This document shows, piece by piece, positions 22,603-51,200 of a stretch of DNA of 64,000 nucleotides. The notes below the pieces were generated by a model. The model saw only the letters and a list, made by a program, of their open reading frames with translations, ran no database searches and was not told where the DNA came from. Where the stretch lies: the NCBI RefSeq assembly GCF_054482595.1, contig NZ_CM137008.1; one strand, given 5' to 3'. Every line of letters begins with the position of its first letter. Position 1 is the stretch's first letter. Made by a program: the position numbers and the translations under genes.

Positions 22603-22912
<310 letters not shown>

Positions 22913-24844: not shown

Positions 24845-25320
<476 letters not shown>

Positions 25321-43257: not shown

Positions 43258-43366
43258 CGTTAACCTCTGTCTGTCTCTGGAATGAGAGGCAGACTACTCG
43301 CCGATTGTCATAAGGTAAAAGTCTCATTTATGATGAGTTCTATTGGATTTACTTATAGGTTGGCGA

Positions 43367-44266
43367 ATGCTCTCTCGACATATCAATTATTTTCTTGCCG
43401 TGGCTGAACATGGCAGCTTCACCCGTGCCGCCAGTGCGTTGCACGTCTCCCAGCCTGCGCTTTCCCAGCAGATTCGCCAGTTAGAGGAGAGTTTAGGCGT
43501 GCCGCTGTTTGACCGTAGCGGGCGAACGATTCGTCTCACTGATGCAGGAGAAGTCTGGCGACAGTACGCCAGCCGGGCGTTACAGGAACTGGGAGCGGGT
43601 AAACGGGCGATTCATGATGTTGCCGATTTGACGAGAGGATCGCTGCGTATCGCCGTCACCCCCACCTTTACGAGCTACTTTATCGGCCCCTTAATGGCGG
43701 ATTTCTATGCGCGCTACCCCGGCATCACGCTCCAGCTACAGGAAATGTCGCAGGAGAAAATCGAAGATCTGCTTTGCCGCGACGAGTTGGACGTTGGGAT
43801 TGCCTTCGCGCCTGTGCATTCGCCGGAGCTGGAGGCAATTCCTTTACTGACAGAAAGTTTAGCGTTAGTCGTGGCGCAACATCATCCGCTGGCCGCCCAT
43901 GAACAGATGGCGTTGAGTCGCTTGCATGATGAAAAACTGGTCCTGCTCAGCGCGGAATTTGCCACCAGAGAGCAAATTGACCACTACTGCGAGAAAGCGG
44001 GGCTGCATCCACAGGTGGTAATTGAGGCGAACTCAATTAGCGCGGTTCTGGAGCTGATTCGCCGCACTTCCCTTTCCACATTGTTACCAGCAGCGATTGC
44101 CACACAACATGACGGGCTTAAAGCTATTTCTCTTGCCCCGCCACTACTGGAGAGAACGGCGGTTTTGTTGCGGCGGAAAAATAGCTGGCAGACAGCCGCC
44201 GCGAAGGCATTTTTGCACATGGCGTTGGAGGAATGCGCGGATGTTGGCGGGAATGAATCACGGTAG
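43367..44266 (+). CDS. cynR: CynR, LysR-family activator of the cyn operon
   Basis: 299 aa from the internal start [22 protein letters not shown] (LysR HTH); divergent from cynT. Confidence 0.93.
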
Positions 44267-44396: not shown

Positions 44397-45680
44397 TCAC
44401 CGTTTGTAATCGATGGCTTCTGGCTGCTCCAGATATACGGTGGTTTGTGCCGGTTGTGTGCTGGCGATCACCTTACCGCCACGTACAGAATAACGTACCG
44501 GAACCTGACGGCGCAGCGCATCAAATCCATTTTCAGCCGGCAGGATAATCAGGTTCGCGCTGTTTCCGGCGGCAATGCCGTAATCCTGCAAATTCAACGT
44601 CCTGGCGCTGTGGTGGGTGATTAAATTCAGGCCATCGTTAATCTGCCCATAGCCCATCAGCTGGCAAACATGCAGCCCCATATGCAGCACTTGCAGCATA
44701 TTCGCCGTTCCCAGCGGATACCACGGATCGAAGACATCATCGTGACCAAAGCAGACGTTAATGCCGGACTCCAGCATCTCTTTAACGCGCGTGATGCCGC
44801 GACGTTTTGGATACGTATCGAAACGTCCTTGCAGATGAATATTGACCAGCGGGTTGGCGACAAAGTTAATACCGGACATTTTCAGCAAGCGGAACAGGCG
44901 TGAGGTATACGCCCCGTTATAGGAGTGCATTGCCGTGGTGTGGCTGGCGGTGACTCGCGCGCCCATGCCTTCACGGTGCGCCAGGGCAGCAACGGTTTCG
45001 ACAAAGCGCGACTGCTCGTCATCGATCTCATCACAGTGAACGTCGATGAGACGGTCGTATTTTTGCGCCAGGGCGAAGGTTTTATGCAGCGACTCCACGC
45101 CGTATTCACGGGTAAATTCAAAATGCGGAATCGCCCCCACTACATCTGCCCCTAAGCGTAACGCCTCTTCCAGCAACGCTTCACCGTTGGGATACGACAA
45201 AATCCCTTCCTGAGGGAAGGCGACGATTTGCAGATCAATCCACGGCGCGACTTCCTGCTTCACTTCCAGCATTGCTTTCAGCGCAGTTAGCGTTGCATCC
45301 GAAACATCGACATGGGTACGCACATGCTGAATGCCGTTGGCAATCTGCCATTTCAGCGTTTGCCAGGCGCGTTGTTTCACATCGTCATGGGTTAATAACG
45401 CTTTGCGCTCGGCCCAGCGTTCAATGCCTTCAAACAGCGTGCCGGACTGATTCCAGTTCGGTTGTCCGGCGGTTTGCGTGGTGTCCAGGTGAATATGCGG
45501 CTCCACAAATGGCGGTATAACTAAACCTTGTTCGGCATCCAGGCTGTTTTCAGTTATGGGCATCACGCCGGATTGCGCATCAATGGCGCTGATTTTTCCG
45601 TCCTGCAGATGAATCTGCCACTGCCCCTCTTTGCCTGGTAACCGGGCGTTAATAATTGTTTGTAAAGCGTTATTCGACAC
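44397..45680 (-). CDS. codA: CodA, cytosine deaminase
   Basis: 427 codons from GTG ([16 protein letters not shown]...); start overlaps the codB 3' end by 11 nt. Confidence 0.93.
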
Positions 45681-46929
45681 TGTTAGCCTCCACATGCGTC
45701 ATTGCTGCTGTCGTTTTACGATTCAAAATCGGGTTAAGGATCAGATAGCTCAGCGCGCCACCTAATACCGCGTTGACCGGAACAATTCCCGGTAACCAGT
45801 GGCCTGCAGCAATCCCCAAGGCGACCGCCAGAATCGCCACCCAATTGACACTCATCATACGCGTGGTCGCAAAGTGCTCATAGCGGCGACGGTTCATCAG
45901 ATAGTCGGCAATGATCACGCCACCCACTGGAGGAATAGCTGCCGAAAGGAAGGTCAACCAGCCGACAAAATTGTTATACAGCCATAATGCGCAGACCGTA
46001 CCGATAATACCGTTGATTACCGAAAGGGTTTTGCTCGACATCCCGGTAATGTTGGCGAAACCTAAACCCGACGCATAGAGCGCGTTATCGTTGGTGGTCC
46101 AGATATTTAGCCCCAGCACCACAATCGCAGGCAACAGCAGGCCCTGAGCAATCATCACATCAGAGATATCCGCCAACCCCAGTGCCGCCGCTCCCGCTGC
46201 ACCGAAAATAAACATCAACGAGTTGCCGAGGAAAAAGGCCACCATCGCCACCAGCACCGCCAGTTTGGCATTGCGACCAAACCGGACAAAGTCAGCGGTG
46301 AGCGTACCCGCACTGATAAATGACCCCACAACCAGCGCCAGCGCGACATTGAAATCTAACGGTTGTGCGGGAACGACCGCTTTTAATGCGTCCAGGCCGC
46401 CCATGCCGTTAACAGCCAGCCACACGGAATAACCACCAAGGCAGGCGATAGCCGGAACCGCAATCACCGAAAGAACCGTCAGCGCCGAAATGCCAAAGAA
46501 GACGGTGACGGTCATCAGTAAACCGGAAACGGCAATCAGCAAATTAATATCCAGCCCGGTTGCCTTGCCCACCGGAATGGCAAACATCGCCACACCGACG
46601 CCAAACCAGCCAACCTGGGTGCCGCCCAGCAGCAGTGAAGGCAGCCATGAGCCTTTAACACCAAACGAGAAGCGAGCAAGAAGATGGGTGGTCAGGCCGG
46701 TTTTTGCACCAATGTAACCGAGAAATGAAGTGTAAATACCGAGGAGAAGATTACCGATGAGAACTGCGAGGAAGAAATCATGATAGCTAAGACCGGTTCC
46801 GAGAGTGCCGCCGGTCCACATACTGGCGGAAAAGAAGGTTAATCCCAGCATGACGAACGTCAATGCCAATACCCCTTTCCGCGCCGACTGCGGGACTGGC
46901 CCCTGGCTAAAGTTGTTATCTTGCGACAC
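45670..46929 (-). CDS. codB: CodB, cytosine permease (NCS1 family)
   Basis: 419-aa hydrophobic ORF. Confidence 0.95.
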
Positions 46930-47084
46930 GAAATTCCCCCTTTTTGCTGTTTGAAACCCAAAAAATCCGCCGCATTCTATTCATCTGAAGATAAAAAGCA
47001 ATCGTTTTCGTGGGGAAATATATTTTTTATATGAATGAGTGCAAAAAGGTGGGGGAAAAATTATCGGTGTAAAAACAGTGGGTA

Positions 47085-47815
47085 GGCATAATAAGACGCG
47101 GTAAGCGTCGCATCAGGCATCGGCGCATGGTGTCGGATGCGGCGCGAGCGCCTTATCCGACCTGCGGTTCAGGCCTGTAGGCATGATAAGACGCGCCTGC
47201 GTCGCATCAGGCATCTGCGCATGGTGTCGGATGCGGCGCGAACGCCTTATCCGACCTGCGGTTCAGGCCTGTAGGCATGATAAGACGCGCCTGCGTCGCA
47301 TCAGGCATCGGCGCACGGTGTCGGATGCGCCGCGAGCGCCTTATCCGACCTACGGTTCAGGCCTGTAGGTATGATAAGACGCGCCTGCGTCGCATCAGGC
47401 ACTGAGCACGGTGTCGGATGCGGCGCGAGCGCCTTATCCGACCTACGGTTCAGGCCTGTAGGCATGATAAGACGCATCAGCGTCGCATCAGGCATCGGCA
47501 CACGGTGTCGGATGCGGTGCGAGCGCCTTATCCGACCTACGGTTCAGGCCTGTAGGCATGATAAGACGCATCAGCGTCGCATCAGGCATCGGCACACGGT
47601 GTCGGATGCGGCGCGAGCGCCTTATCCGACCTACGGTTCAGGCCTGTAGGTATGATAAGACGCATCAGCGTCGCATCAGGCACTGAGCACGGTGTCGGAT
47701 GCGGTGCGAGCGCCTTATCCGACCTACGGTTCAGGCCTGTAGGCATGATAAGACGCGCCAGCGTCGCATCAGGCATCTGCGCACAACTGTCGGATGCGCC
47801 ACGCGACGCATCCGA
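47085..47815. repeat. Large REP/BIME array, about 7-8 tandem units of roughly 94 bp
   Basis: Repeating GTCGGATGCGGCGCGAGCGCCTTATCCGACCTACGGTTCAGGCCTGTAGGCATGATAAGACGCRYCAGCGTCGCATCAGGCATCGGCRCAYGGT with minor variants; approximate bounds. Confidence 0.9.
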
Positions 47816-47822
47816 CAATACC

Positions 47823-49709
47823 TTACTCTTCCATCGCCTGGCGGATCTGATCCAACGACGCCGGATCATCAATGGTCGTCAGATCCCCCGGATCGCGTCC
47901 TTCGCAAATCGCCTGGATCGTGCGGCGCAGCATTTTTCCGGATCGCGTTTTTGGCAATTGCGAGACAAACCAGACGTGCGCCGGGCGGCCAAAGTTGCCA
48001 ATCTGGCTGTCCACCAGCGCCATAATCGCCTTCTCTTGCGAATGCGCCACATCACGATCTTCCAGACTGTCGCTCTCTTTCGGAATGACAAACGCCACCG
48101 CCACCTGCCCTTTCAGCGCATCGTTCACCCCAACCACCGCCACTTCGGCAACGCCCGGATGACTGGAGATACTCTCTTCAATCTCGCGCGTCCCCAGCCG
48201 ATGCCCGGCAACGTTAATTACATCGTCAGTGCGCCCGAGAATAAAGTGATAACCGTCAGCGTCACGGATGCCCCAATCAAAGGTGGCGTACACCGGGCGG
48301 GAAAACAGCGACCAGTAAGTCTTCACAAAGCGGTCGTCGTCGCCCCAGATGGTCTGAATACAGCCCGGCGGCAGCGGCCCTTCCACCACCAGCATCCCTT
48401 TCTCGTTGACGCCACACGGTTCGCCGGTGACTTCATTAAGCAACTGCACGTTATAGCCATACATCGGCACGCCGGGGCTTCCCAGACGCGTCGGCCTGTC
48501 GTCCAGACCGCGAGCAATCGCCATAATCGGCCAGCCGGATTCGGTCTGCCAGTAGTTGTCGATAACCGGCACATCCAGCGTATTGCTTACCCAACTGGCG
48601 GTTGGCTCGTCCAGCGGCTCCCCCGCCAGATAGAGTACTTCCAGCGACGAAAGATCGTGTTTGCGAATTTCAGCGGTAGGGAATTTTTTCAGCACGCGAA
48701 TGGCGGTCGGCGCCGAGAACATCCGGCTAACCTGATATTTCTCGACGATTTTCCACCACACGCCGCAGTCCGGCCAGGTCGGTAATCCTTCGTAAACGAT
48801 AGTCGCCATCCCCGCCAGCAGCGGCGCGTAGACGATATACGAATGCCCCACCACCCAGCCGATATCCGAAGCACAAAAGAACACACCGCCCGCTTTGCCG
48901 CCAAAAATGGTGTCCATCGAGGTCGCCAGCGCCACCGCATATCCGCCGACGTCACGCTGCACGCCTTTAGGTTTGCCGGTCGTGCCGGAGGTGTAGAGAA
49001 TGCAGGAGGTTTCGTTGGATTCCAGCCACGCCACCGGTACCCGCGCGCCGATGTGTTGATGGCGCAACGACGCGAAATCGACATCCCGCCCGCTGACGCG
49101 CGCCATTTTCGCCAGCCCGCGATCCACCAGCAAAACATGGCGCGGCTGGTGCTGCGCCTGACTTATCGCATCGTCGAGCAATTTTTTATAGGGAATGATT
49201 TTGCCACCGCGCGCTCCGGCATCAGCCGAGACAATCAGCACCGGTTTAGCATCATCAATTCGCGCCGCCACGCTATGAGAGGCAAATCCACCAAACACCA
49301 CCGAGTGAATAGCGCCAATGCGCGCGCAAGCCAGCAGGGTTATATGCGCTTCGGCAATCATCGGCATATACACCAGCACCCGTTCGCCACGCTGCACGCC
49401 CAGTGAGCGCAGCATTGACGCCACCGCGTTCACTTCGTCATGCAGCTGACGAAAGGTAAAGGTGCGCTCTTCTTCTGTTTCCGAAGAGACGGCAATCAGC
49501 GCCAGCGCCTCTGGCTGTTTCTCCAGCCAGCGATCGATAGCGTTGTGACACAAGTTGGTTCGGCCTTCACAAAACCAACGGGCAAACGGCGGATTGCTGT
49601 GATCGAGCGTTTGCGTAAAGGGCGTCTGCCAGTCAATACGCCGGGCCTGCTCGGCCCAGAACTGCTCCGGTTCGTTAATCGAACGCTGATAAAATTCGCT
49701 AAAAGACAT
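47823..49709 (-). CDS. prpE: PrpE, propionyl-CoA synthetase
   Basis: 628-aa acyl-CoA synthetase ORF. Confidence 0.95.
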   Translation of the reverse strand: MSFSEFYQRSINEPEQFWAEQARRIDWQTPFTQTLDHSNPPFARWFCEGRTNLCHNAIDRWLEKQPEALALIAVSSETEEERTFTFRQLHDEVNAVASMLRSLGVQRGERVLVYMPMIAEAHITLLACARIGAIHSVVFGGFASHSVAARIDDAKPVLIVSADAGARGGKIIPYKKLLDDAISQAQHQPRHVLLVDRGLAKMARVSGRDVDFASLRHQHIGARVPVAWLESNETSCILYTSGTTGKPKGVQRDVGGYAVALATSMDTIFGGKAGGVFFCASDIGWVVGHSYIVYAPLLAGMATIVYEGLPTWPDCGVWWKIVEKYQVSRMFSAPTAIRVLKKFPTAEIRKHDLSSLEVLYLAGEPLDEPTASWVSNTLDVPVIDNYWQTESGWPIMAIARGLDDRPTRLGSPGVPMYGYNVQLLNEVTGEPCGVNEKGMLVVEGPLPPGCIQTIWGDDDRFVKTYWSLFSRPVYATFDWGIRDADGYHFILGRTDDVINVAGHRLGTREIEESISSHPGVAEVAVVGVNDALKGQVAVAFVIPKESDSLEDRDVAHSQEKAIMALVDSQIGNFGRPAHVWFVSQLPKTRSGKMLRRTIQAICEGRDPGDLTTIDDPASLDQIRQAMEE

Positions 49710-49748: not shown

Positions 49749-51200
49749 TTAAATGACGTACAGGTCGAGATACTCATTGACCGGCATCTGTTCCAGGCGA
49801 GTTCTGTCGAGAGAAACCTCCAGAATGCGCTGCTGCTGGCGAGTCGGGAACTGGCGCGCGAGATTGATTTTGAATTTATCCACCAGCTTCGGAATGCCAT
49901 CCTGACGGCGGCGAGCATGACCAATGGGGTACTCCACCACCACTTCTTCAAAGCGCGTGCCGTCGGTGAACTCAAGAGTAATGGCATTGGCGATGGCGCG
50001 TTTTTCCGGGTCGTGGTAGTCAGCGGTAAACGCCGGATCTTCAAAGCAATTGATCTTCTCGCGCAGGGCGTCGATGCGTTTATCTTGCGCAACGTTGTCC
50101 TCGTAATCTGCCGCCGTTAAGCGCCCGAACAGCAGCGGGATCGCCACCATGTACTGAATGCAGTGGTCGCGGTCTGCCGGGTTATTGAGCGGCCCCTTTT
50201 TGTCGATGATGCGAATACAGGCTTCGTGGGTGCGGATGGTCACTTTTTCGATATCTGCCGCCGTTTTGCCTGCTGCCTGCATCTGTTCATAGAGCGTCAT
50301 CGCTGCTTCAACTGCCGTCTGGGAGTGGAACTCCGCCGGGAAGGAGATTTTGAACAGCACATTTTCCATCACGTAAGAACCGTACGGACGCTGGAAGCGG
50401 AACGACTCACCTTTAAAGGAGACGTCATAGAAGCCCCACACAGGCGCAGTCAGGGCTGACGGGTAACCCATTTCGCCCGTTTTCGCCATCAGTGCCAGAC
50501 GTACCGCGCGGGAAGTGGCATCGCCCGCCGCCCAGGATTTACGCGTGCCGGTGTTCGGCGCATGGCGATAGGTGCGCAGCGACTGACCGTCCACCCACGC
50601 CAGCGAAACAGCGTTGAGAATTTCCTCGCGGGTCAGGCCAAGCATTTCGGCGACCACGGCGGTGGAAGCCACTTTCACTAACAGAACGTGGTCGAGGCCG
50701 ACGCGGTTAAAGGAGTTTTCCAGCGCGATGCAGCCCTGAATTTCATGGGCTTTAATCATTCCGGTCAGCACCTGTTTCATGGTCAACGGCGCTTTGCCGC
50801 TGGCGACCGCGTTGCGCGAAAGCCAGTCTGCCGTTGCCAGAATGCCGCCGAGGTTGTCGGAAGGATGGCCCCACTCTGCCGCAAGCCAGGTATCGTTGAA
50901 ATCGAGCCAACGGATCATCGCGCCGATGTTAAATGCCGCCTGGACGGGGTCGAGCTGGAACTGAGTTCCGGGGACGCGCACGCCGTTAGGTACGACGGTG
51001 CCGGGGACAATTGGCCCCAGCAGTTTTTTACAGGCCGGGTATTCGAGAGCTTCAAGACCGCAGCCGAGCGTGTCGAGCAGGCAGTAATGTGCGGTGTCGT
51101 AGGCCACTTTGGAGCTGATTTCGTAGTTCATCACGTAATCGACGATATCAACGATTTCACGATCAAATTCCGGGCGGATGTTGTTGATTTGAGCTGACAT
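49749..51200 (-). CDS. prpD: PrpD, 2-methylcitrate dehydratase
   Basis: 483-aa ORF. Confidence 0.95.

What the first reader, a model, noticed from the sequence alone, without database searches (positions are those of the whole stretch)
47085..47815. About 730 bp tandem REP/BIME array between codB and prpE
Seven to eight near-identical units of roughly 94 bp, each a pair of GC-rich palindromes, fill the gap after two convergent operons. The array produces several spurious ORFs in the track (MIRRACVASG..., MRCERLIRPT...). Arrays this long are strain-variable and can bind gyrase and IHF and act as mRNA stabilisers.
Basis: seen in the sequence. Interest (0 to 1): 0.3.

Follow-up and report, generated by a model that had tools for sequence, protein, structure and literature searches.

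The report
BIME-2 REP array between prpE and codB
This is an ordinary, already well-known kind of E. coli intergenic repeat (a BIME-2 array of alternating Z2 and Y REP hairpins). It sits just after the prpE gene and upstream of the codB promoter, is expanded here to 7 full units, and ranges from 0 to 8 units in other E. coli genomes.

Summary
Window 47082-47817 holds a tandem array of period 94 bp with 7.6 copies and 93% matches. It consists of 8 Z2-type REPs, 7 Y-type REPs and one terminal perfect hairpin, joined by 11-13 nt linkers. Seven units pass the gathering score of Rfam naRNA4, the model built from the K-12 BIME-2 array REP325.

prpBCDE and codBA are co-directional, both on the minus strand, and not convergent. 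The array lies 3' of prpE, with a hairpin 3-6 nt after the stop codon, and about 37 bp upstream of a codB promoter-like site. It is therefore not in the codBA 3' UTR. There is no IHF consensus or long L linker, so this is BIME-2 and not the IHF-binding BIME-1.

Strain variability is confirmed. In 118 sampled complete E. coli genomes the insert fits 83+94n bp. About 27 have n=0, 59 have n=1 (K-12), 14 have n=2, 1 has n=4, 8 have n=7 and 1 has n=8. About 8 are split or enlarged inserts; 7 of those show an annotated IS621. The array ORFs are spurious.

The most likely role, inferred from REP325, is a partial transcription attenuator and prp mRNA 3'-end protector. Novelty is none and interest is low.

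The parts
47082..47817 (.). Whole BIME-2-type array: 8 Z2 REPs, 7 Y REPs and a terminal hairpin, in the order Z-Y-Z-Y...Z-T on the + strand
   Evidence: TRF period 94, 7.6 copies, 93% matches.
47082..47119 (-). Z2-type REP 1 on the codB-proximal edge; variant CATAATAAG with loop GGTAAG
   Evidence: 32/37 matches to the published Z2 consensus
47132..47165 (+). Y-type REP 1 (tail CCTGC)
   Evidence: 29/35 matches to the published Y consensus; inverted repeat I2
47177..47213 (-). Z2-type REP 2
   Evidence: 35/37 matches to Z2
47226..47259 (+). Y-type REP 2
   Evidence: 30/35 matches to Y; I6
47271..47307 (-). Z2-type REP 3
   Evidence: 35/37 matches to Z2
47320..47353 (+). Y-type REP 3
   Evidence: 29/35 matches to Y; I7
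47365..47401 (-). Z2-type REP 4 (GTAGGT variant)
   Evidence: 34/37 matches to Z2
47413..47446 (+). Y-type REP 4
   Evidence: 30/35 matches to Y; I3
47458..47494 (-). Z2-type REP 5
   Evidence: 34/37 matches to Z2
47507..47540 (+). Y-type REP 5
   Evidence: 29/35 matches to Y; I8
47552..47588 (-). Z2-type REP 6
   Evidence: 34/37 matches to Z2
47601..47634 (+). Y-type REP 6
   Evidence: 30/35 matches to Y; I4
47646..47682 (-). Z2-type REP 7 (GTAGGT variant)
   Evidence: 33/37 matches to Z2
47694..47727 (+). Y-type REP 7
   Evidence: 29/35 matches to Y; I9
47739..47775 (-). Z2-type REP 8
   Evidence: 36/37 matches to Z2
47788..47817 (-). Terminal perfect hairpin 'T'. It derives from the Y 5' arm and has no CTTATC bulge and no GTAG/CTAC tail. 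It is the first structure in the prpE 3' UTR, 3-6 nt after the stop codon, and is present in every allele checked, including the 87-bp minimal one.
   Evidence: Inverted repeat I5, 11 nt, 100% complementary. RNA dG -25.4 kcal/mol, z = -6.1. Allele comparison.
47823..49709 (-). prpE (propionate--CoA ligase), last gene of prpBCDE. Its stop codon TAA occupies 47825-47823.
   Evidence: TIGR02316 at 1302 bits against a cut-off of 827; ORF list
45670..46929 (-). codB (cytosine permease), first gene of codBA. It is transcribed away from the array.
   Evidence: NF008241 at 694 bits against a cut-off of 326
47017..47045 (-). Sigma-70 promoter-like site (TTTGCA, 17 nt spacer, TATATT), a candidate codBA promoter about 37 bp downstream of the array edge in the minus-strand sense
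   Evidence: Consensus scan, 9 of 12 matches. This is a consensus match only. Its assignment to codBA is inference.

Best explanation
The feature is a BIME-2-type bacterial interspersed mosaic element. It is a head-to-tail array of 94-bp units, each made of one Z2 REP and one Y REP in inverted orientation. A 12-nt head-to-head linker and an 11-nt tail-to-tail linker join the REPs. The array sits in the 893-bp gap between the stop codon of prpE and the start codon of codB, and both genes are transcribed in the same direction.

Shown here: the composition, the family assignment, the gene context, and the fact that this is a variable-number locus across E. coli. The insert measures 83+94n bp with n = 0-8 and a mode of 1. 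This window carries n = 7, giving 16 palindromic units, more than the 12 of REP325.

Inferred from published work on the closest studied relative, REP325 between yjdM and yjdN, which has the same orientation relative to a tandem gene pair: when prpBCDE is transcribed, the array is copied into the prpE 3' UTR as a string of stable hairpins. These hairpins would (i) block 3'-to-5' exonucleases and so protect prp mRNA. They would also (ii) act as a partial, probably Rho-assisted attenuator that limits read-through into the separately promoted codBA operon. The first hairpin lies 3-6 nt past the prpE stop codon, within the 15-nt range in which REPs have been reported to stall terminating ribosomes. 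It may therefore also lower PrpE yield.

At the DNA level the seven Y REPs are candidate gyrase sites. Copy number most likely changes by unequal homologous recombination or replication slippage between the near-identical units, possibly helped by the REP-associated transposase. An O157:H7 isolate with 2 units is a clean internal deletion of its serotype's 7-unit allele.
For: Anatomy: TRF, unit register, element typing as ZYZY...ZT, and identity to the published Y and Z2 consensus sequences (Z2 32-36/37, Y 29-30/35, consensus from PMC11208160).

Family: seven hits above the gathering score to Rfam RF02564 naRNA4 on the prpE-sense strand, and an eighth at 51 bits. The unit aligns with the REP325 unit and two other window arrays at 89% mean column identity. 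The BIME-2 definition comes from PMC3333891.

Context: NCBIfam names for cynR, codA, codB, prpE and prpD, with strands. A promoter-like site lies between the array and codB, and no canonical intrinsic terminator follows prpE.

Hairpins: the terminal hairpin folds at -25.4 kcal/mol, the Z2 and Y hairpins at -13 to -15, and adjacent Z2-Y pairs can also form a long REPIN-like hairpin. Across 26 distinct units, 95.8% of cells pair in the Rfam structure.

Population: two spread samples of 59 genomes each, with alleles read base by base.

Function by analogy: REP325 acts as a partial Rho-dependent terminator and an upstream-mRNA stabiliser, and REP-containing tandem gene pairs show upstream-biased expression (bioRxiv 10.64898/2026.03.23.713779). 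REPs within 15 nt of a stop codon stall ribosomes (Liang 2015, as cited in PMC12306157). Gyrase cleaves the Y REPs of BIME-2 (PMC6379681).
Against: No expression, 3'-end, Rho or gyrase data exist for this locus or strain, so every functional step is by analogy. The REP325 preprint itself stresses that REP effects depend on context and that terminal REPs do not globally lengthen mRNA half-life. C exceeds G only slightly on the mRNA strand (239 against 219), so there is no strong rut-like signature. Most genomes manage with 0-1 unit, which argues that the extra units here are not needed and may be neutral. Covariation support is weak: there is one compensatory pair, and the basal Z2 pair is broken in 19 of 26 distinct units.
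Confidence: 0.8

Rival explanations
1. Selfish or neutral repeat expansion. The units are REP doublets (REPIN-like) amplified by the REP-associated tyrosine transposase or by recombination. The extra copies have no host function, and the locus is simply a tolerated intergenic landing pad.
For: Copy number ranges from 0 to 8 with a mode of 1, so long arrays are dispensable. Adjacent Z2-Y pairs fold into a long REPIN-like hairpin. The same unit type occurs at a median of 4 and up to 15 places per genome, and the naRNA4 consensus at 30 or more places. TnpA-REP recombines BIMEs in vitro, and copy number at a locus varies between strains (PMC3333891). A higher-order 3-unit periodicity indicates block duplication.
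Against: This rival does not exclude a local regulatory side-effect. In all alleles examined a hairpin stays within a few nt of the prpE stop codon, or overlaps it. That suggests at least the proximal element is retained.
Confidence: 0.4
2. DNA-level topological element. The Y REPs recruit DNA gyrase, and the array acts as a supercoil barrier between the prp and cod transcription units, independently of being transcribed.
For: Seven Y-type REPs are present. Published Topo-seq shows gyrase cleavage enriched in BIME-2, preferentially in Y REPs, and persisting when transcription is inhibited (PMC6379681). REPs have also been described as topological insulators (references cited in PMC3333891).
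Against: Only a subset of BIME-2 elements is cleaved in vivo. The Y REPs here differ from the consensus at 5-6 of 35 positions. There is no cleavage data for this locus.
Confidence: 0.3
3. A cluster of nucleoid-associated noncoding RNAs (naRNA-like) that bind HU and condense the chromosome, as first proposed for REP325.
For: Seven units exceed the Rfam naRNA4 gathering score. The original naRNA4 work reported that any RNA with the two hairpins works with HU (PMC4550694).
Against: [quoted passage not shown] The Rfam model matches about 30 or more places per genome, so a hit identifies a BIME-2 unit and not a dedicated gene. No promoter-like site lies inside the array.
Confidence: 0.05
4. The ORFs in the array (61-96 aa, plus a 377-aa ORF antisense to prpE) encode real small proteins.
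For: The ORFs exist mechanically. One is deposited as a hypothetical protein, and a 92-aa relative carries the name 'ribonucleoside reductase'.
Against: The ORFs have no Pfam family. RefSeq annotates nothing between codB and prpE in any genome fetched. The ORFs are repeats of REP sequence whose frame changes with copy number, because 94 is not a multiple of 3. They vanish in alleles with 0-1 unit.
Confidence: 0.01

Closest known systems
REP325 (yjdM-yjdN BIME-2 array of E. coli K-12; source of naRNA1-6 and Rfam RF02564)
   Same: Both have alternating Z2 and Y REPs in tandem units. Both lie between two co-directional genes, with the same orientation relative to transcription: Y hairpin first, then Z2, on the mRNA. 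The head-to-head linker is similar (about 12-13 nt), and the units pass the same covariance model.
   Different: The unit here is 94 bp against 100 bp, because the tail-to-tail linker is 11 nt (GGTTCAGGCCT) against about 17 nt. This window has 7.6 copies and 16 palindromes against 5.8 copies and 12. The Y stem carries a compensatory U-A where REP325 has C-G, and Z2 carries a C-to-A change that breaks the basal pair. A separate promoter-like site for the downstream gene lies between the array and codB. An extra REP-derived perfect hairpin abuts the upstream stop codon.
BIME-1 / RIB / RIP elements (Y + L linker + Z1, IHF-binding)
   Same: Both are built from REP palindromes in inverted pairs and are located at the 3' ends of transcription units.
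   Different: BIME-1 occurs as a single copy with a long L linker that carries an IHF site (PMC3333891). This array has Z2-length elements (37 nt, 32-36/37 matches to Z2), only 11-13 nt linkers and no IHF consensus.
REPIN / RAYT system (REP doublets mobilised by the REP-associated tyrosine transposase TnpA-REP)
   Same: An inverted REP pair can fold into one long hairpin. GTAG/CTAC tetranucleotides flank the palindromes. Copy number varies between strains.
   Different: No RAYT gene was looked for or seen near the array. The amplification here is strictly local and tandem and not dispersed, so homologous recombination or slippage can explain it without a transposase.
Other BIME-2 arrays in the same window (frmB-side array 22603-22911; mhpE-mhpT array 24867-25309)
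   Same: They have the same Z2 + Y architecture and Rfam naRNA4 hits.
   Different: They have 3-4 units of 100-101 bp, canonical Y (GCCGGAT...) and canonical Z2 including the IS621 target ATCAGGCCTAC. The prpE-codB units carry ATCATGCCTAC instead.

Membership tests
REP / palindromic unit (E. coli Y and Z2 types) | 30-40 nt imperfect palindrome matching the Y or Z2 consensus, with a GTAG/CTAC tail | tested here: met
   The eight Z elements match Z2 at 32-36 of 37 positions. The seven Y elements match Y at 29-30 of 35 (consensus sequences from PMC11208160). The CTAC tail is present except in Y1 and Y2, which have CTGC. The terminal hairpin matches only 23/35 and is REP-derived and not a typical REP.
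REP / palindromic unit | Extragenic location | tested here: met
   The array lies wholly between the prpE stop codon (47823) and the codB start codon (46929).
BIME-2 | Alternating Z2 and Y REPs in inverted orientation, in multiple tandem copies | tested here: met
   The order is ZYZYZYZYZYZYZYZT, and the consensus strands alternate between - and +. TRF reports 7.6 copies. The definition is from PMC3333891.
BIME-2 | Short linkers (S head-to-head; s, l or r tail-to-tail) and no long L linker | tested here: met
   The linkers are 11-13 nt.
BIME-2 | Copy number at a locus varies between strains | tested here: met
   n = 0, 1, 2, 4, 7 and 8 units at this locus.
BIME-2 | DNA gyrase binding and cleavage, mainly in Y REPs | not testable with these tools
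   The literature covers other loci only (PMC6379681).
BIME-1 / RIB (IHF-binding) | Long L linker with an IHF site; Z1 partner; single copy | tested here: not met
   None of the 7 WATCAANNNNTTR matches in the window falls in 47082-47817. The linkers are 11-13 nt, the elements are Z2 length, and the array is in tandem copies.
Rfam RF02564 naRNA4 | Score at or above the gathering threshold (59.5 bits) for the two-hairpin model | tested here: met
   Seven hits of 60.0-70.5 bits on the minus strand, and an eighth at 51.4 bits below threshold. The model matches about 30 or more places per genome, so membership means 'a BIME-2 unit' and not a dedicated sRNA gene.
Rfam RF02564 naRNA4 | Expressed RNA that binds HU | not testable with these tools
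   No expression or binding data are available for this locus.
REP acting as a translation down-regulator (Liang, Rudd and Deutscher 2015) | REP hairpin within 15 nt of the upstream stop codon | tested here: met
   The hairpin stem starts 3-6 nt after the prpE TAA. In EC958 the Y REP overlaps the stop codon. The rule is taken from PMC12306157; the original paper could not be opened. The element here is a REP-derived perfect hairpin and not a canonical REP, and the effect itself is untested.
Intrinsic (Rho-independent) terminator | GC-rich hairpin followed by a U tract | tested here: not met
   The only terminator-like match on the minus strand is the last Z2 REP with a weak TTATTAT tail. The count is no higher than in shuffles.

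The most novel reading that the evidence does not exclude
The long allele (7-8 units, 16-18 hairpins) is not a neutral expansion but a maintained strain-specific regulatory state. It occurs with the same unit count in at least two sequence families of the array: one shared by the window and O157:H7, the other by AF206. The flanks of these alleles differ by 1-2%. The long allele could give much tighter insulation of codBA from propionate-induced prp transcription, or a different PrpE output, than the 0-1 unit alleles. That would make this a natural 'dial' on the prp/cod boundary.
Probability: 0.07. Interest if true: 0.35.

Novelty: already known. Interest (0 to 1): 0.12.

Why it matters
It matters little for discovery. 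BIME-2 arrays, their Y/Z2 make-up, their strain-to-strain copy-number variation, their use as IS621 targets and their proposed roles have all been described before. The practical value is for annotation. The ORFs in the array should not be called as genes. The Rfam naRNA4 hits should be read as 'BIME-2 unit'. The array belongs to the prpE 3' UTR and the upstream region of codB, not to a convergent terminator region. The locus could serve as a convenient natural allelic series (0, 1, 2, 4, 7 or 8 units, with or without IS621) for testing how REP number affects attenuation and mRNA stability.

Tried and rejected
1. IHF site: a search for WATCAANNNNTTR found 7 matches in the window and none in the array, so the IHF/BIME-1 reading was rejected.
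2. Intrinsic terminator after prpE: the consensus scan found nothing beyond chance.
3. Protein-coding reading of the array ORFs: there were no Pfam hits at E <= 1, apart from a chance 0.069 hit in the part antisense to prpE. RefSeq annotates nothing there. This reading was rejected.
4. Covariation as evidence of selected structure: there is only one compensatory pair, and the shuffle controls barely differ (95.8% against 95.3% paired). The slid controls mainly show that the palindromes are palindromes. This is uninformative beyond conservation.
5. K-12 RefSeq annotation of a REP at this locus: the stored record lists no repeat features here, and none at REP325 either, so the absence means nothing.
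6. Global MFE fold of the whole array: it gives long-range pairings between distant units. I treated this as an artefact of folding a repeat all at once and relied on local folds.
7. Reading Liang et al. 2015 directly: the paper is not held, so I used the secondary citation.
8. Literature on this specific locus: searches for prpE + codB + repeat, and for VNTR + BIME, returned nothing specific.
9. A full copy-number census of all 5,230 genomes was not possible because output is limited to 60 rows. I used two spread samples instead. Classes other than the fetched alleles are assigned by length only.

Full report
**1. The observation**

Tandem Repeats Finder reports a single array at 47082-47798 with period 94, 7.6 copies, 93% matches, no indels and score 1178. 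Written in 94-nt register the units are visibly near-identical and 93-95 bp long. GC content is 0.61-0.64 in the array against 0.39 in the neighbouring codB upstream region. The prpE-sense RNA folds far better than shuffles, -385 against -311 +/- 9 kcal/mol, z = -8.1.

**2. Anatomy**

Each unit holds two imperfect palindromes. Typing them against the published E. coli REP query sequences (Y, Z1 and Z2, quoted in PMC11208160) gave the following.
- Eight elements match Z2 at 32-36 of 37 positions, with the consensus on the minus strand.
- Seven elements match Y at 29-30 of 35 positions, with the consensus on the plus strand.
- They alternate strictly as Z-Y-Z-Y...Z and end with a sixteenth element, 'T'.

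T (47788-47817) is a perfect hairpin made from the Y 5' arm and its exact complement. It has no CTTATC bulge and no CTAC tail, and as RNA it folds at -25.4 kcal/mol.

The head-to-head linkers are 11-13 nt, and the tail-to-tail linker is always GGTTCAGGCCT, 11 nt. Units 4 and 7 share two diagnostic variants 282 bp apart, and TRF scores a 281-bp period slightly higher than the 94-bp one. Part of the array therefore grew by duplication of a three-unit block.

**3. Context**

NCBIfam equivalog models identify the following genes:
- cynR, 43343-44266, plus strand
- codA, 44397-45695, minus strand
- codB, 45670-46929, minus strand
- prpE, 47823-49709, minus strand
- prpD, 49749-51200, minus strand

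The array follows the prpE stop codon (TAA, 47825-47823). The T hairpin begins 3-6 nt later.

Between the array and codB lie about 150 AT-rich bp with one sigma-70-like site: TTTGCA, 17 nt spacer, TATATT, at 47045 to 47017 on the minus strand. I take this, by inference, to be the codBA promoter. No canonical intrinsic terminator follows prpE. The array can therefore be part of the prp transcript. It is part of a codBA transcript only through read-through.

**4. Family**

Rfam places seven units above the gathering score of RF02564 naRNA4, at 60.0-70.5 bits against a threshold of 59.5. All seven lie on the prpE-sense strand. The eighth, which includes T, scores 51.4 bits.

That model derives from REP325, the K-12 BIME-2 array between yjdM and yjdN. 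I fetched REP325: it has period 100, 5.8 copies, and the same orientation relative to a tandem gene pair. The unit consensus sequences of this array, REP325 and two other arrays in the window align at 89% mean column identity. The REP cores are almost invariant and the differences concentrate in the linkers.

By the definition in Ton-Hoang et al. (PMC3333891), BIME-2 consists of z2 and y REPs in multiple tandem copies with short linkers. BIME-1 consists of z1 and y in a single copy with a long L linker that often carries an IHF site. This array is BIME-2.

The Rfam hit should not be over-read, because the naRNA4 consensus matches about 30 or more places per E. coli genome. This locus's own two-unit sequence matches a median of 4 and up to 15 places per genome.

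**5. Structure conservation**

I scored 26 distinct units against the Rfam structure. They came from this locus in seven strains and from REP325. Of all cells, 95.8% form standard pairs. There is only one compensatory pair, U-A here where REP325 has C-G. The amplified Z2 variant (GTAGGCATGAT in place of GTAGGCCTGAT) breaks the basal pair in 19 of 26 units. This shows conservation and not strong covariation. Local folds also show that an adjacent Z2-Y pair can form one long REPIN-like hairpin.

**6. Population**

I used flank-only queries so that REPs elsewhere in the genome would not interfere. The locus is present in 5,230 of 5,426 complete E. coli genomes. In two 'spread' samples of 59 usable rows each, the distance between the flanks fits 83+94n bp.

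| Class | Genomes (of 118) | Notes |
|---|---|---|
| n = 0 | about 27 | |
| n = 1 | 59 | includes K-12 and the ST131 strain EC958 |
| n = 2 | 14 | |
| n = 4 | 1 | |
| n = 7 | 8 | |
| n = 8 | 1 | |
| Split or enlarged insert | 8 | IS621 annotated in 7; the eighth was not inspected |

I read representative alleles base by base.
- The minimal 87-bp allele is one Z2 plus T.
- AR_0085 is identical to the window.
- O157:H7 FRIK2533 and isolate AF206 also have 7 units but different internal variants.
- RM14516 has 8 units.
- VTB96959v has 4 units.
- O157:H7 strain 6535WT has 2 units and is a clean internal deletion of the O157 7-unit allele. Copy number therefore changes within a clone.

The samples are biased by what has been sequenced, and classes are assigned by length except for the fetched loci. 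With 16 palindromic units this allele exceeds the 1-12 units per REP element reported for K-12. That is a modest quantitative point. Variation in BIME-2 copy number between strains is already documented (PMC3333891). PU clusters are also a known class of small variable segments and minisatellites (PMC2884548).

**7. The ORFs**

They have no Pfam match. They are not annotated in any RefSeq record I fetched. They disappear or change frame with copy number. One is deposited as 'hypothetical protein BW242_21915' (APY05523.1) on a contig of 4,883,427 bp. That is the length of the XH990 chromosome, whose flanks are 100.0% identical to the window. The window probably comes from that strain. A 92-aa relative carries the name 'ribonucleoside reductase' in some records.

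**8. Mechanism**

Nothing about function can be measured here, so this section is inference from the closest studied relative.

Harris et al. (bioRxiv 10.64898/2026.03.23.713779) report three things. REP325 does not compact the nucleoid. It limits transcription into the downstream gene about 8-10-fold in a partly Rho-dependent way and stabilises the upstream mRNA. Genome-wide, REPs between tandem genes go with upstream-biased expression. The prpE-array-codB arrangement is the same kind of tandem pair in the same orientation.

I therefore commit to the following as the most likely role: a hairpin string in the prpE 3' UTR that protects prp mRNA from 3' exonucleases and attenuates read-through into codBA.

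The T hairpin lies within the 15-nt distance from a stop codon at which REPs were reported to stall ribosomes (Liang et al. 2015, cited in PMC12306157). In EC958 a Y REP even supplies the stop codon. A hairpin hugging the prpE stop codon is the most conserved feature of the locus.

Gyrase cleavage of Y REPs in BIME-2 is well supported elsewhere (PMC6379681) and is a compatible DNA-level role. Most genomes carry 0-1 unit, so the extra units in this window are probably neutral or nearly so.

**9. Verdict**

The finding is a real feature of an already well-known kind. It was correctly recognised as a REP/BIME array. It also made one imprecision: the array cannot stabilise codBA mRNA. Interest is low.

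Noticed in passing
L003 2661-3641 and L004 4619-5599 (prpE-codB interval of strains bR_120_Kylling and GF47); also hits H84, H85, H88, H95, H97: An IS621 element (IS110 family, the bridge-RNA recombinase) is inserted in the first Z2 REP of this same array in about 7% of sampled genomes. The insertion is exactly at GTAG|GCCTGAT, the published natural target ATCAGGCCTAC. The amplified units in the window carry ATCATGCCTAC instead, and no insertion was seen in them.
   Followed up: partly
window 22603-22911 and 24867-25309: Two further BIME-2-type arrays are present. One has period 100 and 3.1 copies, next to frmB. The other has period 101 and 4.4 copies, between mhpE and mhpT. Both have Rfam naRNA4 hits and canonical Y and Z2 sequences, including perfect IS621 target sites.
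   Followed up: partly
L006 (AF206), L012 (VTB96959v), L003/L004, at the codB-side edge of the array: A 7-bp duplication, TGGGTAGTGGGTAG, marks one allele family and is also the left junction of the IS621-bearing alleles. Either IS621 entered that allele family, or the duplication is linked to IS621 activity.
   Followed up: no
L009 (EC958, ST131), prpE 3' end: In the phylogroup B2-type allele the terminal hairpin is absent. The tail of a Y REP (CCTAC) directly provides the prpE stop codon (TAG), so the REP overlaps the coding sequence by a few bases.
   Followed up: partly
window 47183-47368 (+): This REP-derived 61-aa ORF is deposited in GenBank as APY05523.1 'hypothetical protein'. Its contig has the same length as the XH990 chromosome, so the window is probably from strain XH990. 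A 92-aa relative is named 'ribonucleoside reductase' in some records, which is an annotation error propagated from repeat DNA.
   Followed up: partly
window 47365-47412 and 47646-47693: Units 4 and 7 share the variants GTAGGT and CTGAGCACGGT, 282 bp apart. This gives a higher-order three-unit periodicity (TRF period 281) and indicates block duplication inside the array.
   Followed up: partly
window 46975-46990 (-), between the promoter-like site and codB: The sequence ACGAAAACGATTGC lies just downstream of the promoter-like -10 hexamer and resembles a PurR operator half-palindrome. This is from memory of the PurR box and was not tested.
   Followed up: no
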